A DNA stretch of 64,000 nt from a virus (Duplodnaviria > Heunggongvirae > Uroviricota > Caudoviricetes), in the IMG/VR virus record IMGVR_UViG_2529292828_000009; one strand, written 5' to 3'. The position numbers and the translations under genes were made by a program. Below, piece after piece: positions 55,785 through 64,000 of this stretch. Numbering within the stretch: position 1 is the stretch's first letter; each line of letters begins with the position of its first letter. The notes beneath the pieces are model-generated. The model worked only from the letters and a program-made list of their open reading frames with translations, was not told where the DNA came from and did not search any database.

Positions 55785-55808
55785 TGGTGCCGAAGGCCGG
55801 ACTCGAAC
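55785..55808 (-). repeat. att repeat: 24-nt copy of a tRNA 3' end (tRNA-Leu-like), not an intact tRNA
   Basis: TGGTGCCGAAGGCCGGACTCGAAC is the reverse complement of ...GTTCGAGTCCGGCCTTCGGCACCA; sequence beyond it does not continue as a tRNA. Confidence 0.7.
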
Positions 55809-56155
55809 ATCGCAACTATCCTTATGATCTTTAGTAATTAAAGCAATCTACATTGTCGATGATACCATCATTGATACCATCAGACCCGATTGATGATAAT
55901 CGAACAGTAATAAAATATGACTAAACAATTTATGCTTCAACATAAGATTGAATGCTTTGATCTACCATTTTAATGCAGTGGAAAAATTTTTAACACAATA
56001 CTTAAGAAAAATAATTTCATATAAAAACTACATTTCATTTCATATAGTTAACACACCAAAAACAACTGTATATAAACCCAGTAAAAAATGGTAGAATCAC
56101 TATTGTGTTCAATTGTTGAACATTTATAATACATTTGTCGGATAGGGGGGTGTTT

Positions 56156-56743
56156 ATGCAAAGGAACACATACAACAAAGTAGGTCTATACATCCTATCT
56201 TTAGCTATGCTTTTTGTTTTTATTATTATCCTGACTGCCAAAATCCCCTTTTGCTTCACTTCGGATTGTAGCTTCATAGGTTTGAAGAGACTTGTATTAA
56301 CAAATATTGTTCCTATTGTTTGCTTTGTATTTTTTCTATTTAGTATTTATTTTTATAATAGATTAAAAAACATAACAAAATACAATGGACAAGATAGCGT
56401 TAAAATAACATCATGTCAAAGCGAAAGCTATGAAAGTTTAACATTCTTAGCAACATACATTGTACCTTTTATGGGGTTTAGTTTTGAAGACATGCAAAAG
56501 AATATAGCATATCTTTTGCTTGTAGTAGTAATAGGCATTATTTTTATTAAAACAGACAAGTATTATGCGAATCCAACTTTAGCTCTGTTTGGCTTTAAAC
56601 TATACAGGGTAAATATACTACACCCAGGAAGTGGAGAAACAAAAAATCTGATAGCTATTTCAAATGATGTATTAAAAGTGGACGATAATGTTTATTATAG
56701 TTTCTTTGATGAATTTGTTTTTATAGCAAGGAAAAAAATATGA
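56156..56743 (+). CDS. Four-TM membrane protein, KwaA-like (putative Kiwa component)
   Basis: Four hydrophobic helices; GGGGGG RBS before ATG; ATGA overlap with downstream gene. Confidence 0.45.
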   Translation: MQRNTYNKVGLYILSLAMLFVFIIILTAKIPFCFTSDCSFIGLKRLVLTNIVPIVCFVFFLFSIYFYNRLKNITKYNGQDSVKITSCQSESYESLTFLATYIVPFMGFSFEDMQKNIAYLLLVVVIGIIFIKTDKYYANPTLALFGFKLYRVNILHPGSGETKNLIAISNDVLKVDDNVYYSFFDEFVFIARKKI

Positions 56744-57687
56744 CTACTCAGCAGTTAAAAGAAAAAATTTCAAAAATAATTGATAACTTTAGCGGAATCA
56801 GGGTTGTATTTACTACTACTGCTAATGAACTAAAGCTTTCCAGAATTGAAGGGAGTGCATTAAATAGCATAGCTGAAGGGTTTATTGACAAAATCAAAGA
56901 AGACATTATAAATAATGAAGATCTCACCTCACCATTGCTGTCCAATTTTGATGATAGAAAAAATGCCTTGTTTAAATTTGATTACGAACAATATCCTGAA
57001 GAATTTAACAAAATCACTCAGGCCATCGCTATCCCTCCTAACTCACAAGATTATTATAACCCTTTAAATAAATTCACAGATGTGAAAGGAATTATAATTT
57101 TAATAAGTGGAGATAACAAATGCCTGGCTCTTTATAAAAACAAAACTAACCTTGCAGTATTGAGAAATAGCAGAAAAATGTTTAATTTAGTCCCTGACCC
57201 TGATGGATACTTGAAACAACTCCCTAATGAGATATTACGGTTAGATTTCAATTATGATCTATTATCAATTGGTGAGGATTTTTACATTAAAAATCACAAG
57301 ACTCTTGAAACTCAAATGAAATTTCATCAAGTGATTGAAGCCCAGGCAGTTATTGCTTTAAATTCTTTACGGGATTCACTACTAATTGAAGACATATCAG
57401 GTTTAGAAAAGAGTTCGAGAGAAATTTCATTCGCTAGAAAGTTGGCAAAAATCTCCAAACATTCTCCTGTTTTGGGGAAAATAGATACTAAAACAATTAT
57501 CGATTATGTATCCCAACATAAATATTTATCTGCAATACTTCAGATTAATGAAGCAGGAAATAAGTTATTAATTAAAACCAAGACATCACAGAAGCATTTC
57601 ATTAAACTCATGAGCGATGATTATTTACAATCAGATCTAACTAAAATAATATACATGAGCATAGCAAAAGACAGATTAGATGAATAG
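56740..57687 (+). CDS. Soluble ~315 aa protein, KwaB-like (putative Kiwa component)
   Basis: Size and operon architecture match Kiwa; no motif verified. Confidence 0.4.
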   Translation: MTTQQLKEKISKIIDNFSGIRVVFTTTANELKLSRIEGSALNSIAEGFIDKIKEDIINNEDLTSPLLSNFDDRKNALFKFDYEQYPEEFNKITQAIAIPPNSQDYYNPLNKFTDVKGIIILISGDNKCLALYKNKTNLAVLRNSRKMFNLVPDPDGYLKQLPNEILRLDFNYDLLSIGEDFYIKNHKTLETQMKFHQVIEAQAVIALNSLRDSLLIEDISGLEKSSREISFARKLAKISKHSPVLGKIDTKTIIDYVSQHKYLSAILQINEAGNKLLIKTKTSQKHFIKLMSDDYLQSDLTKIIYMSIAKDRLDE

Positions 57688-57700
57688 AATTTTAAGTAGA

Positions 57701-57745
57701 AGTGACAAATATTATAAACCATTCTTGAAATATATTTGTCACTAT
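57701..57745. terminator. Inverted repeat between convergent genes (bidirectional terminator candidate)
   Basis: GTGACAAATAT ... ATATTTGTCAC. Confidence 0.35.
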
Positions 57746-57751
57746 TACTAA

Positions 57752-58423
57752 TCATTCGCGTGCTTGATTATTTATGCTGGATGTTCTAATTGTTGCCGAA
57801 TGCCAATACCCACCACTATATGTTCTTGCTATAGTAATAAATCCAGTACAGGTAATTACTGTCATTAAAATCAGGAAAATATAATAGAAATTAAGCGGAG
57901 CTTTCAAATCAAAAGGAGGTAACGAATACACCAGCAACCCTATCCATACAATAGTTATAAATAAACTAATAATTTGGTTTATCTTAGATACTGATATTGG
58001 AGATGGACCAGTAAGTAAATGAACCGAAAACTCTTTTATTCCTTTCGGTTTTGCACGAGATAACACCACTTTATATAGTGGACCATTAATATTATCTTCT
58101 AACATATCGACATGTTTTTCCCAGTTTCCCTGCCAATATTTACTACCACGGTTAACACAGAGCCAACCGAATGAAAATACAATTCCCAGTGAACACAGTA
58201 ATACGGATAAATCTGTCTTAGCTGTAGAAGAGGAAGTCTGTATAGCAACAAAACCAGCTAAAGTTGCCGCTATAAAAGTCCAGAAATAAGTTGCTCTTTT
58301 CCAGTAATGGTCTATCTCATATTTCCGTATATCTAAAGCCTGTAGCAGAGCATTCTTATTACAGTCTCTATCATTAAGAAAACGGCTACGATATTCCTCA
58401 TCTGAAAATGGAGTAATTGGCAT
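57752..58423 (-). CDS. Four-TM membrane protein co-oriented downstream of the RM fusion gene
   Basis: 223 aa; four hydrophobic helices. Confidence 0.55.
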   Translation of the reverse strand: MPITPFSDEEYRSRFLNDRDCNKNALLQALDIRKYEIDHYWKRATYFWTFIAATLAGFVAIQTSSSTAKTDLSVLLCSLGIVFSFGWLCVNRGSKYWQGNWEKHVDMLEDNINGPLYKVVLSRAKPKGIKEFSVHLLTGPSPISVSKINQIISLFITIVWIGLLVYSLPPFDLKAPLNFYYIFLILMTVITCTGFITIARTYSGGYWHSATIRTSSINNQARE

Positions 58424-62363: not shown

Positions 62364-62621
62364 ATGCCAGAAATAGATAGGCAGGGAGGTTTGGCTTTCT
62401 ACATGTACTTTTTCGATACGGGAAAACATCATGTTCCTCATGTACATGTAAAATTTGGCGAATATGAATTGGTTTTAAGTATAGCGGATGCCCAAGAACT
62501 CGCAGGATACTTACCCGATAAATGGAGAAATAAAGCAAGAAAACATGTATTAACAAATAAACAGAAACTTAAGAAAATGTGGGTTCTCGCCGTGAATGGA
62601 AAACAGCCAGGAACTATCTGA
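62364..62621 (+). CDS. DUF4160-like small protein
   Basis: 85 aa; HHVPHVHV motif. Confidence 0.5.
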   Translation: MPEIDRQGGLAFYMYFFDTGKHHVPHVHVKFGEYELVLSIADAQELAGYLPDKWRNKARKHVLTNKQKLKKMWVLAVNGKQPGTI

Positions 62622-62634
62622 AGAGGAGAGATTT

Positions 62635-63135
62635 ATGAGCAGAATTATAGACTTAGATATTATTGATGATTTTACTTTGCAGTTAACCTATGAAAGTGGT
62701 TTGTCTGGAAAATTTAACTTCTTTAAATATCGTGATTGCGAAGTTTTTAATAATCCTAAAAAATTCCAGAAATTTGCTTTGCTACCTACTGGTGATCTCG
62801 AATGGTTAGGGGGCGAACGAGTTACTTCCTTAGAACTGTTAGATAAACTTGTTAATATAAGCTCTACTGAAAAGAGTAATATTTCAGGCACCACCGACAT
62901 ACTCATGATGGCGTTTCAAGATGCTGTTCGTGAAAATAGACCACAGATTATTCAGGCAGCTTTGCGAGCTATGCTTGATAAGCATGGTGTAGCAAATGTT
63001 GCAAATATGACAAATGGAAGTAGAACAAGTATTTATAAGTCCCTAAGCGAAAATACTAATGTATCTATGTCTACTGTTATTAACCTTGCTCATAGTGTTA
63101 TGGAAATTGAGAAAAAAGAAAAAGAAATATATTAA
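62635..63135 (+). CDS. DUF2442-like domain protein with C-terminal HTH-like region (start at internal Met)
   Basis: Beta-rich N-terminal ~85 aa then helical segment; overlaps upstream gene. Confidence 0.45.
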   Translation: MSRIIDLDIIDDFTLQLTYESGLSGKFNFFKYRDCEVFNNPKKFQKFALLPTGDLEWLGGERVTSLELLDKLVNISSTEKSNISGTTDILMMAFQDAVRENRPQIIQAALRAMLDKHGVANVANMTNGSRTSIYKSLSENTNVSMSTVINLAHSVMEIEKKEKEIY

Positions 63136-63477
63136 TCCCCCATTTTAAGAACGAGGATTGTACACCCACCTGATTCAATAGCATTCTCTTAATTCGTTTA
63201 TATGCCCTTGTCCTCATGATAGAATTGAGTACAGAATAGCTTCTCCAAAAAGGAAAATAATGCGGATAATTATAGCATTTTTAATTTATTCCCTGCGAGT
63301 TAAATACCTTTACTATTATAAGATAAAAACCCAAGCATTAGCATAACTTCATTTCATACATCACATCCCCTCACATTTTCTTCATTACATGTTGACATGA
63401 AATAAATTTACTTATAATTATATAATATCAATAAGTAATATAGGGCATTTTAACACACACATATAAAAGGAGTTTAT

Positions 63478-63882
63478 ATGGAAGATATAAAAAACAAAGA
63501 AGACATTTCACCATCTACAGAAGTCAGGCTCTTCACCCCCACCATGAAAAAAACTTCTAAAGTGCATCCCAACGAGCGGAGATTACACTGTGTCAGTGTC
63601 CGATTAAATAAAAAAGAGTTAGAGAAGATTGAAGAACTCAGGGGTCGTTACCGTAGGGGAGAATGGCTGCGTATGGTGTCGTTAAGCAAACTTCCTCCAT
63701 TGATCCCAGAGATAAACAAGGATGTCTGGATCATGTTGGGGGAAATATCGCAGAAACTTAATCGTCTGATAGTACATCTGGATTCTAAAACCAGTGACAG
63801 CCCTCTGACTAAGACAGAAGCTTATGCAGTCAAAAAACAACTTCATGAGCTTCGTTTAAGCCTGATAACTTCTCGTCCATAA
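63478..63882 (+). CDS. MobC-family mobilisation accessory protein
   Basis: 134 aa; ...LGEISQKLNRLIVHL resembles MobC G-NLNQ-A motif; directly upstream of relaxase-like start. Confidence 0.55.
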   Translation: MEDIKNKEDISPSTEVRLFTPTMKKTSKVHPNERRLHCVSVRLNKKELEKIEELRGRYRRGEWLRMVSLSKLPPLIPEINKDVWIMLGEISQKLNRLIVHLDSKTSDSPLTKTEAYAVKKQLHELRLSLITSRP

Positions 63883-63892
63883 AAATTTCTAA

Positions 63893-64000
63893 TTATGAAA
63901 GGAATGCAGAAGATCAAGAGGGGTAAGAGCTTCGCTGGTGTTGTTCAATATGCATTGAAACCTGGAGCACATCATAAATGCGATCCAGTCGTAATCGGGG
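63893..64000 (+). CDS. Relaxase (MOBP-type), N-terminal fragment at window end
   Basis: MKGMQKIKRGKSFAGVVQYALKPGAHH... resembles relaxase N-termini. Confidence 0.45.

What the first reader, a model, noticed from the sequence alone, without database searches (positions are those of the whole stretch)
55785..64000. Tandem island array: no intact tRNA next to the integrase, and a second mobilisable element begins
P4-type integrases normally sit beside the intact target tRNA. Here only a 24-nt tRNA fragment is present and the DNA beyond it is an AT-rich block ending in mobC and a relaxase start. This implies a second integrative mobilisable element inserted between the true tRNA and the satellite, with its integrase and the tRNA presumably outside the window.
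Basis: inference. Interest (0 to 1): 0.5.

Follow-up and report, generated by a model that had tools for sequence, protein, structure and literature searches.

The report
Two mobile islands stacked at leuX
Two separate mobile elements, a P4-like phage satellite and a mobilisable anti-phage defence island, sit one after the other at the E. coli leuX tRNA gene; this stacking is well known at this defence hotspot, so the finding is correct but ordinary.

Summary
Window 55785-55808 is an exact copy of the last 24 nt of leuX (tRNA-Leu-CAA). No tRNA is detectable there. The DNA to its right is AT-rich (GC 0.34).

The window is E. coli 2780750 contig AQDV01000058.1, so I could read about 10 kb past its end. 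The AT-rich block is the distal part of an island of about 19 kb. In order it carries:
- a conserved ~100-nt end
- Kiwa, a RipA-like membrane protein and a type IIG restriction-modification enzyme
- a DUF4160/DhiA-like pair
- a ribbon-helix-helix (RHH) accessory protein and a MobA/VirD2-type relaxase
- a ginABCD-like recombinase operon
- AlpA, DUF6387 and a second P4-type integrase

In E. coli AREA_C483 a 97% identical backbone sits directly beside intact leuX-ahr.

A second, degenerate leuX fragment at 44133-44168 closes the P4-like satellite (44169-55784). Each element has its own integrase-arm repeats on both ends.

- "mobC" is really a NikA-like RHH protein.
- The order of insertion cannot be told.
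- The last 1.6 kb of the contig, where intact leuX should lie, could not be fetched.

The locus is Hochhauser's hotspot #37. Tandem accretion at tRNA genes is established, so interest is low.

The parts
44133..44168 (-). Degenerate leuX 3' fragment. It has a 15-nt exact core, CGAGTCCGGCCTTCG, followed by three copies of CACCTTCG-like sequence in place of GCACCA. It is the distal att site of the P4-like satellite.
   Evidence: The 15-mer occurs only here and in the 24-nt fragment, with 0 expected by chance. The sequence was read. The same fragment and flank are joined directly to the island end in BA22372.
44169..55784 (.). P4-like satellite, 11.6 kb. It carries an alpha primase (44520-46904), C4 and isrK RNAs (47658-47885), Psu/Sid-like genes (49090-50426), a SIR2-HerA defence pair in the hotspot (51307-54323) and an integrase.
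   Evidence: PHROG hits, Rfam C4 and isrK, PADLOC SIR2 and HerA, Pfam.
44221..44241 (-). Two GGGGCAYAA repeats spaced 12 nt apart. Candidate arm-type sites of the satellite integrase on the far arm.
   Evidence: The partner pair lies at 55649-55669.
54362..55633 (-). P4-type tyrosine integrase of the satellite (423 aa).
   Evidence: Pfam Arm-DNA-bind_3, Phage_int_M and Phage_integrase. It is 58% identical to the island's integrase.
55649..55669 (-). GGGGCATCT and GGGGCATAA repeats spaced 12 nt apart. Candidate arm-type sites on the integrase-proximal arm of the satellite.
55785..55808 (-). Exact 24-nt 3' end of leuX. It is the shared junction: proximal att of the satellite and distal att of the second island.
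   Evidence: The junction with the island end is identical in 10 loci.
55809..55918 (.). Conserved ~100-nt terminus of the second island. It holds two TGATGGTAT repeats (55862-55870 and 55874-55882) spaced 12 nt apart.
   Evidence: The terminus is conserved at about 77-86% identity in islands that carry different cargo. The same repeat pair lies just upstream of the second integrase in AREA_C483.
56156..57687 (+). Kiwa defence system: kwaA (56156-56743) and kwaB (56740-57687).
   Evidence: PADLOC KwaA at 9.4e-77 and KwaB at 1.7e-115. Pfam KwaB. RefSeq annotation of relatives.
57752..58423 (-). RipA-family octameric membrane protein (Pfam 8xMP). Its role is unknown.
   Evidence: Pfam PF24838 at 1.3e-39. 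RefSeq name in BA22372. No PADLOC hit.
58476..61754 (-). Type IIG restriction-modification enzyme (Eco57I-like, 1092 aa).
   Evidence: PADLOC REase_MTase_IIG at 2.3e-156. Pfam Eco57I and N6_Mtase.
61865..61945 (+). Conserved non-coding imperfect hairpin (AAGCAAGGGCTAACTC...GAGTT.CCCTTG). Candidate oriT by inference only.
   Evidence: The motif occurs once per island, upstream of the RHH gene, in 11 loci and once in the window. The hairpin is kept with some compensatory changes in 4 sequences.
62364..63135 (+). DUF4160 protein (62364-62621) and a DhiA-like antitoxin (62635-63135), a probable toxin-antitoxin pair. It lies between the hairpin and the mob promoter.
   Evidence: Pfam DUF4160 at 2.4e-14. 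NCBIfam DhiA at 1.3e-38, below the family cut-off. The pair is absent in BA22372.
63478..63882 (+). Ribbon-helix-helix relaxase-accessory candidate.
   Evidence: Weak RHH and NikA-like hits only. It belongs to a conserved family, 40-53% identical, that always sits just upstream of the relaxase.
63895..64000 (+). 5' end of the MobA/VirD2-type relaxase gene. It continues to contig position 65085 (396 aa).
   Evidence: PF03432 at 4.7e-23. NCBIfam TraI/MobA(P) and MobB similarity, below the cut-offs.

Best explanation
The right end of the window is a tandem array of two independent, site-specific integrative elements. Both use the 3' end of leuX (tRNA-Leu-CAA) as their recombination core.

Element 1 is an 11.6-kb P4-like satellite (44169-55784). 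It is closed by a degenerate leuX fragment at 44133-44168 and the exact 24-nt fragment at 55785-55808.

Element 2 starts at 55809 and runs about 19 kb to a second P4-type integrase, at about contig position 74.85 kb. It is a low-GC integrative mobilisable island. Its parts are:
- a conserved ~100-nt end
- a swappable defence cargo: Kiwa, a RipA-like protein, a type IIG restriction-modification enzyme and a TA-like pair
- a NikA-like RHH protein and a MobA/VirD2-type relaxase
- small lipoproteins
- a ginABCD-like operon
- AlpA, DUF6387 and the integrase

How it works. The first three steps below are inferred from established tyrosine-recombinase and IME biology. The last step is an observed sequence pattern.
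1. Each integrase, probably with an AlpA/Vis-type directionality factor, recombines its own pair of att sites. Specificity comes from element-specific arm repeats, while the core is shared.
2. Either element can therefore leave or enter without the other.
3. The excised island would be nicked by its relaxase at an oriT and carried by the secretion machinery of a co-resident conjugative element. It encodes none of its own.
4. The middle fragment is a displaced copy of the tRNA 3' end. Its GCACCA part is perfect only where a neighbouring element with its own integrase abuts it.
For: Shown:
- The 24-nt fragment is exact and no tRNA is present.
- A second fragment lies in direct orientation at 44133-44168.
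- The window is contig AQDV01000058.1, and L010 is identical to it over the overlap.
- The island backbone and a second P4-type integrase lie on the same contig.
- A 96.7% identical backbone lies next to intact leuX-ahr in AREA_C483.
- 93 of 5426 complete E. coli genomes have a place covering at least 80% of a 921-nt query spanning this integrase's 5' end, intact leuX and the start of ahr.
- The island end is joined to the leuX core at the same nucleotide in 10 loci with unrelated left neighbours.
- The satellite's integrase lies against intact leuX in many genomes, with identity ending exactly at 55808.
- Element-specific 12-nt-spaced repeat pairs sit on both arms of each element.
- P4 hallmarks are present.
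- No conjugation genes appear among the called genes of the island.
- The literature places the locus as hotspot #37, nanS-yjgB with tRNA-Leu-CAA, and treats tandem integration as established.
Against: - The intact leuX of this strain was not seen. Contig positions 73883-75464 could not be fetched.
- In BA22372 the equivalent integrase abuts yet another leuX fragment, so a third element is possible here too.
- No oriT has been demonstrated. The hairpin at 61865-61945 is only a candidate.
- Excision, transfer and the activity of either integrase are untested.
- The ginABCD-like operon has no role in this model.
Confidence: 0.88

Rival explanations
1. The structure is the same but the history is reversed. 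The defence island was already at leuX, and the P4-like satellite later integrated into the island's distal leuX fragment (a secondary attB). Under this reading the island did not insert between leuX and a resident satellite.
For: BA22372 and GCA_003982545.1 (L006) carry the island end joined directly to the same degenerate fragment and flank that closes the satellite in the window. In the window the fragment next to the island has a perfect GCACCA and continues into satellite DNA. The far fragment keeps the degenerate repeats. That is exactly what satellite integration into the degenerate site would produce.
Against: The same BA22372-type junction would also arise if a satellite excised from a window-type array. 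Integration normally favours the intact tRNA gene. The two strains share cargo at 97.6% identity but their backbones are only about 70% identical, so recombination has blurred the ancestry.
Confidence: 0.35
2. [quoted passage not shown] It would be moved by its ginABCD-like operon and be nested in, or fused to, a minimal leuX island made of integrase, DUF6387 and AlpA. The P4-type integrase would then not be what moves the cargo.
For: The layout fits the GInt tripartite plan described in PMC5385486: four co-directional genes of 400, 434, 624 and 128 aa, followed by cargo and an AT-rich end. The first two genes have tyrosine-recombinase domains. GInts are reported in 7.5% of Escherichia replicons. 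An 'IME__GInt' class is used for E. coli defence islands.
Against: - The island end abuts the leuX core at one fixed nucleotide. It carries the same TGATGGTAT repeat pair as the integrase-proximal arm.
- I found no 10-17-nt direct repeat between the region upstream of the first gin-like gene and the island end.
- DUF6387, AlpA and the gin-like genes also travel together at another locus.
- Homology to reference GInt proteins was not tested.
- The 624-aa protein has no recognisable recombinase domain.
Confidence: 0.15
3. The satellite and the AT-rich block form one composite island, with an internal scar, that moves as a single unit.
For: The two share a core, so the outer att sites could in principle recombine. 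The composite would be about 30.9 kb (my arithmetic).
Against: Each part is found alone in other genomes. The two parts have different arm repeats, so the outer sites are mismatched for either integrase. Their GC contents differ.
Confidence: 0.04
4. The truncated tRNA results from a non-specific deletion, an IS-mediated rearrangement or a misassembly, not from site-specific integration.
For: The source is a draft assembly.
Against: The same junction, to the nucleotide, is present in complete genomes and in independent assemblies. No IS element lies at the junction.
Confidence: 0.02

Closest known systems
Tandem accretion of integrative elements at a tRNA gene, and E. coli defence hotspot #37 (nanS-yjgB, tRNA-Leu-CAA; Hochhauser et al. 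2023, PMC10121019)
   Same: The locus is the same: fim-nanCMS on one side and, in relatives, ahr/yjgB on the other. There are several att copies in direct orientation with one element between each pair. The content is dominated by defence genes. The hotspot is reported to hold P4-type satellites, IMEs and integrase-bearing islands. Tandem integration at a shared att site is treated as routine in bioRxiv 10.64898/2026.01.13.699239.
   Different: Nothing in kind. This particular pairing, satellite with SIR2-HerA plus island with Kiwa and type IIG RM, is not present in any of the 5426 complete E. coli genomes searched.
P4-like satellites with a defence hotspot (Rousset et al. 2022, PMC9122126)
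   Same: It has an alpha primase, Psu/Sid-like genes, the C4 (CI) RNA and a P4-type integrase at leuX. A variable low-GC defence pair lies between the Psu-like genes and the integrase.
   Different: It does not sit next to the intact tRNA. Its distal att site is degenerate.
Integrative mobilisable elements (Guedon et al. 2017, PMC5704250)
   Same: It has a site-specific integrase, an att repeat, a relaxase with a small RHH partner, and no mating-pore genes.
   Different: It also carries a ginABCD-like operon. The oriT and actual mobilisation are undemonstrated.
GInts, genomic islands with three integrases (Bardaji et al. 2017, PMC5385486)
   Same: It has an operon of three large recombinase-like genes and one small gene, followed by variable cargo that often includes restriction systems, and an AT-rich end.
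   Different: Described GInts insert at the ends of protein-coding genes with 10-17-nt imperfect repeats and have no separate P4-type integrase. Here the island is bounded by tRNA-derived repeats and by arm sites matching a P4-type integrase.
EARL / ROD21-like islands such as ICEKp258.2 (PMC10763509)
   Same: These are enterobacterial tRNA-integrated excisable islands with a P4-type integrase, an AlpA-family regulator, a DUF6387 protein, a small-plasmid-type relaxase and restriction cargo.
   Different: They target tRNA-Asn, carry TraD and pilus genes, and place AlpA and DUF6387 at the end far from the integrase. No sequence comparison was made here.

Membership tests
Tandem array of site-specific integrative elements at a tRNA gene | Three or more copies of the att core in direct orientation, one of them inside an intact tRNA gene | tested here: inconclusive
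   Two copies are shown in the window, at 44133-44168 and 55785-55808, on the same strand. The intact leuX copy lies beyond the fetched sequence. It is present in AREA_C483, which has the same backbone.
Tandem array of site-specific integrative elements at a tRNA gene | Each interval holds a separate element with its own integrase, and each element is found alone elsewhere | tested here: met
   There are two P4-type integrases, 58% identical. The island occurs alone. The satellite's integrase occurs at intact leuX.
P4-like satellite | Alpha primase-helicase, Psu/Sid/Delta-type genes, CI (C4) RNA and a P4-type integrase | tested here: met
   PHROG primase at 1.8e-220 and Psu-like hits at 2.2e-91 and 5.6e-70. 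Rfam C4 at 83.4 bits. Integrase domains.
P4-like satellite | A cos site and dependence on a P2-like helper | not tested
   I did not search for a cos site. Helper dependence needs experiment.
Integrative mobilisable element (IME) | Integrase and flanking att repeats | tested here: met
   The C-terminal 93 aa of the integrase lie on the same contig and are 99% identical to the full-length AREA_C483 protein. The distal att site was shown. Arm repeats lie on both arms. The proximal att site is inferred from relatives.
Integrative mobilisable element (IME) | A relaxase and no mating-pore or coupling-protein genes | tested here: met
   PF03432 at 4.7e-23. None of the called genes in L010 has a T4SS or T4CP Pfam family.
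Integrative mobilisable element (IME) | A functional oriT, and transfer by a helper conjugative element | not testable with these tools
   There is only a candidate conserved hairpin at 61865-61945.
MobC (Pfam PF05713) | A match to the MobC profile | tested here: not met
   No MobC hit at E<=5 for this protein or 4 homologues. There are weak NikA-like and RHH_1 hits only.
GInt | An operon of three recombinase-like genes and a small fourth gene at one end of the island | tested here: met
   Co-directional, overlapping genes of 400, 434, 624 and 128 aa. This is organisation only.
GInt | Homology to GinA-D, with GinC being a recombinase-fold protein lacking the catalytic Tyr | tested here: inconclusive
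   The first two proteins hit Phage_integrase. The 624-aa protein has no Pfam, NCBIfam or PDB match. Structure prediction was not attempted for this protein, because the tool's stated rules exclude proteins that are not encoded in the window.
GInt | Short (10-17 nt) imperfect direct repeats at the island ends, with insertion at the end of a protein-coding gene | tested here: not met
   I found no such repeat between the region upstream of the first gene and the island end. The island end abuts a tRNA-derived core. Very imperfect repeats could have been missed.
Kiwa defence system | Adjacent KwaA (membrane) and KwaB (DUF4868) genes | tested here: met
   PADLOC KwaA at 9.4e-77 and KwaB at 1.7e-115. 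The region is 98% identical to the RM12579 locus annotated kwaA/kwaB.

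The most novel reading that the evidence does not exclude
The second element may not be a plain IME. It may be a widespread enterobacterial hybrid with two recombination systems in one att-bounded island: a leuX-specific P4-type integrase with AlpA, and a complete ginABCD-like operon, joined to a relaxase. The gin-like module could give a second route of integration when leuX is occupied. It could also drive the observed exchange of the defence cargo between the relaxase gene and the ~100-nt end. A related possibility: because both neighbours share a core, the ~30.9-kb satellite-plus-island composite, close to P2 genome size by my recollection, could occasionally move as one unit.
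Probability: 0.2. Interest if true: 0.55.

Novelty: new member of a known kind. Interest (0 to 1): 0.2.

Why it matters
It matters mainly as a correct annotation. The 24-nt fragment is a real att junction, and it lets both elements be delimited to the nucleotide. It also shows that hotspot #37, whose mode of mobilisation Hochhauser et al. called unclear for most islands, is built in this strain by stacking leuX-specific elements on top of older decayed ones.

The practical consequence is that Kiwa, a type IIG restriction enzyme and SIR2-HerA here ride on two different vehicles, one mobilised by conjugation and one by a helper phage. They can therefore be gained or lost independently.

The unexplained ginABCD-like operon inside an island bounded by tRNA att sites is the only part that might repay further work.

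Tried and rejected
1. Fetching the last 1.6 kb of the contig. An exact-sequence cluster look-up showed that none of ten island proteins is its cluster's representative. A homology search would therefore not have returned a usable handle, and I did not spend one.

2. Finding the same array in complete E. coli genomes. None covers 80% or more of 55600-64000.

3. Assigning the 134-aa protein to MobC. This was rejected.

4. Looking for GInt-type direct repeats between the region upstream of the first gin-like gene and the island end. None were found at 10/10, 11/12, 12/14 or 14/17 matches.

5. Inspecting an 'IME__GInt' island in H10407 using the coordinates in the paper's table. The coordinates did not correspond to the RefSeq record.

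6. Finding a recombinase fold in the 624-aa protein by sequence. There was no Pfam, NCBIfam or PDB match.

7. Searching the literature for the RipA/8xMP family. Nothing relevant is in the library.

8. Looking for an oriT-like inverted repeat directly upstream of the RHH gene. Only weak AT-rich palindromes are there. A better candidate lies 1.5 kb upstream.

9. Rejected readings: that the fragment is a chance match, and that a tRNA was missed by the scan.

Full report
**What is at the coordinates**

Window 55785-55808, read on the minus strand, is GTTCGAGTCCGGCCTTCGGCACCA. This is identical to the last 24 nt of the 85-nt leuX gene (tRNA-Leu-CAA) as annotated in E. coli AREA_C483. Identity stops at exactly 24 nt. 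Shuffles give no such match.

ARAGORN finds no tRNA in the whole window. Rfam finds nothing tRNA-like in 55600-56200 even at E<=10.

The gene at 54362-55633 (minus) is a P4-type integrase. In many complete E. coli genomes the 209 nt at 55600-55808 are 100% identical and overlap an annotated intact tRNA-Leu. The match ends at 55808. The window's arrangement therefore departs from the common one, and it departs exactly at the tRNA core.

The DNA to the right is AT-rich. GC is 0.337 for 55809-64000, against 0.444-0.542 for the other parts of the window.

**Where the window comes from, and what lies beyond it**

An exact-protein look-up with the 134-aa ORF at 63478-63882 returned contig AQDV01000058.1 of assembly GCA_000355555.2 (75,464 bp). 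The gene sits there at the same coordinates. The fetched locus L010 (contig 53478-73882) is identical to the window over the overlap. A cluster look-up names the strain as E. coli 2780750.

Downstream of the window the contig carries, in order:
- the rest of a 396-aa relaxase (PF03432, E 4.7e-23);
- three small membrane or lipoprotein genes;
- four co-directional genes of 128, 624, 434 and 400 aa, of which the last two have tyrosine-recombinase domains;
- a 99-aa ORF, an AlpA-family excisionase-like protein and a DUF6387 protein;
- the C-terminal 93 aa of a P4-type integrase.

That 93-aa stretch is 99% identical to the full-length 416-aa integrase of AREA_C483. The AREA_C483 island backbone is 96.7% identical over 10 kb. 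In AREA_C483 the integrase lies 190 nt from intact leuX, which is followed by ahr, yjgR and lptGF. A place covering at least 80% of a 921-nt query across that integrase-leuX-ahr junction occurs in 93 of 5426 complete E. coli genomes.

By the same spacing, leuX of strain 2780750 should lie at about contig 75039-75123. I could not fetch that stretch. The integrase prediction is therefore shown, and the tRNA prediction is inferred.

**The second element is a defined unit**

The junction CGAAGGCCGGACTCGAAC|ATCGCAAC, leuX core then island end, is present at the same nucleotide in 10 fetched loci. Their left neighbours are unrelated to one another: remnants of type IV restriction genes, other integrases, and sequence from other assemblies.

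The first ~100 nt of the island (55809-55918) are conserved at about 77-86% in islands whose cargo is entirely different. Examples are AREA_C483 with Hxs, Abi and TOPRIM genes, SCU-124 with methylases and KSC1031 with McrB/LlaJI.

That terminus carries two TGATGGTAT repeats 12 nt apart, at 55862 and 55874. The same pair, on the same strand and with the same spacing, lies just upstream of the integrase gene in AREA_C483. I read these as arm-type binding sites of the island's integrase on both arms of its attachment site (inference).

Within the window the cargo is:
- Kiwa (kwaA and kwaB);
- a RipA/8xMP membrane protein;
- a type IIG restriction-modification enzyme;
- a DUF4160 protein with a DhiA-like partner.

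The 134-aa protein called 'mobC' has no MobC profile match. It has weak ribbon-helix-helix and NikA-like signals, and it belongs to a conserved family that always sits just before the relaxase.

No conjugation genes are called in the island. 'Integrative mobilisable element' is therefore the right functional class. Transfer and oriT remain untested. A conserved imperfect hairpin at 61865-61945, present once per island upstream of the RHH gene, is my oriT candidate.

**The satellite is also closed by a leuX fragment**

At 44133-44168 there is a second copy of the core in the same orientation. It has 15 nt exact, then three CACCTTCG-like units in place of GCACCA.

Between the two fragments lie 11.6 kb with an alpha primase, two Psu/Sid-like genes, a repressor-like gene, the C4 (CI) antisense RNA and isrK. 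A SIR2-HerA pair occupies a low-GC hotspot next to the integrase. This is a typical P4-like satellite.

It has its own repeats, again in 12-nt-spaced pairs on both arms: GGGGCAYAA at 44221 and 44233, and GGGGCATCT and GGGGCATAA at 55649 and 55661. The two elements thus share a core but have different arm motifs. Their integrases are 58% identical.

**History**

In BA22372 the same degenerate fragment and flank are joined directly to the island end, with no satellite. Two histories fit the data:
- The island entered leuX in a strain that already had the satellite. BA22372 then either never had the satellite or lost it.
- The satellite entered the island's distal fragment.

The partition of the core is compatible with both. 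Its 3'-most part (GCACCA) is perfect next to the satellite's integrase side and degenerate next to the old flank. I give the second history about one chance in three.

The DNA left of the far fragment (42710-44132) holds an HNH/ScoMcrA-type gene and a truncated phosphorothioate-dependent restriction gene. It looks like a still older, decayed layer (inference).

**Cargo exchange**

BA22372 shares the Kiwa to type IIG cargo at 97.6% identity, but its backbone is only about 70% identical. AREA_C483 shares the backbone but none of the cargo. Against AREA_C483, identity jumps from about 60% to near 100% within a few bases of the relaxase start codon. The defence cargo is therefore swapped between two conserved flanks. 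The same behaviour has been described for hotspots in P2 and P4 elements (abstract of PMC9122126).

**The gin-like operon**

The four genes of 400, 434, 624 and 128 aa have the layout of ginABCD. That operon defines GInts and is essential for their excision and integration (PMC5385486). GInts are reported in 7.5% of Escherichia replicons (PMC10214605). Hochhauser et al. use an 'IME__GInt' class for E. coli defence islands.

Here, however, the island is bounded by tRNA-derived repeats and by arm sites that match the P4-type integrase. I found no GInt-type terminal repeats. DUF6387, AlpA and the gin-like genes also occur together near another locus in O157:H7. Whether the operon is a nested GInt, a second integration system or a relic is open. 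Homology to reference Gin proteins could not be tested.

**Comparison with what is known**

The locus is hotspot #37 of Hochhauser et al. It lies between nanS and yjgB, is tagged tRNA-Leu-CAA, is occupied in 97.3% of genomes and holds 31 types of defence system. They report P4-type satellites, IMEs and integrase-bearing islands there. Tandem integration at a shared att site ('tandem accretion') is long established and is now handled routinely in island delimitation.

The finding is therefore a correct reading of an ordinary arrangement. The particular pair of elements is not in any of the 5426 complete E. coli genomes searched. Similar arrays, with the island next to a P4-type integrase, occur in other assemblies (L004 and L008).

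**Verdict**
- Observation: confirmed.
- Interpretation: supported.
- Novelty: a new member of a known kind.
- Interest: low (0.2).
- The one loose end worth noting is the gin-like operon inside an att-bounded mobilisable island.

Noticed in passing
window 1-31460 (Mu-type left-end sequence at about 31376-31465; fimF start at 31585, minus strand): A Mu-like transposable prophage is inserted inside fimF. It carries a MuA-like transposase (28153-30153), Gam, a sheath protein, a portal protein and a terminase. The fimF reading frame runs for about 39 codons and then continues into sequence that, from memory, matches the phage Mu left end. fimG and fimH are not in the window, so type 1 fimbriae are probably disrupted in this strain.
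   Followed up: partly
window 42710-44132: Between nanS and the distal leuX fragment lie an HNH/ScoMcrA-like type IV restriction gene (42717-43367) and a truncated phosphorothioate-dependent restriction gene. The adjacent non-coding DNA looks like the integrase-proximal arm of an older, lost leuX element. A truncated integrase occupies the corresponding position in RM12579.
   Followed up: partly
window 57752-58423: The RipA/8xMP membrane-protein gene stays next to Kiwa both in RM12579, where the neighbouring methylase genes differ, and in BA22372. It has no PADLOC model, and I found no paper on it. It may be a separate defence gene or a Kiwa accessory.
   Followed up: partly
L010 13440-18211 (contig 66917-71688): A ginABCD-like operon (400, 434, 624 and 128 aa) lies inside an island that is bounded by tRNA att sites and also has a P4-type integrase and a relaxase. 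The same block, linked to DUF6387 and AlpA, occurs near ypjA in O157:H7 Xuzhou21 (L015).
   Followed up: partly
window 61865-61945, and 62327-62348: A family-conserved imperfect hairpin, present once per island, is a possible oriT. In this strain the DUF4160/DhiA-like pair separates it from the mob promoter by about 1.5 kb. A perfect 10-bp palindrome (GTTGTATCCT..AGGATACAAC) lies just upstream of the DUF4160 gene and looks like an operator.
   Followed up: partly
window 55809-61922 versus L001 20005-26150; L010 10419-20405 versus L011: The cargo and the backbone of the island have different histories. The cargo is 97.6% identical to BA22372 on a backbone only ~70% identical. The backbone is 96.7% identical to AREA_C483, which has unrelated cargo. 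One breakpoint lies within a few bases of the relaxase start codon.
   Followed up: yes
L001 39739-39762 (BA22372): In BA22372 the island's integrase abuts another 25-nt leuX fragment instead of the intact tRNA. More integrase and recombinase genes lie beyond it, so arrays of three or more elements exist at this site.
   Followed up: partly
window 47658-47885: Rfam C4 antisense RNA (83 bits) and isrK (72 bits) lie side by side in the satellite. This is the expected P4 immunity region.
   Followed up: no
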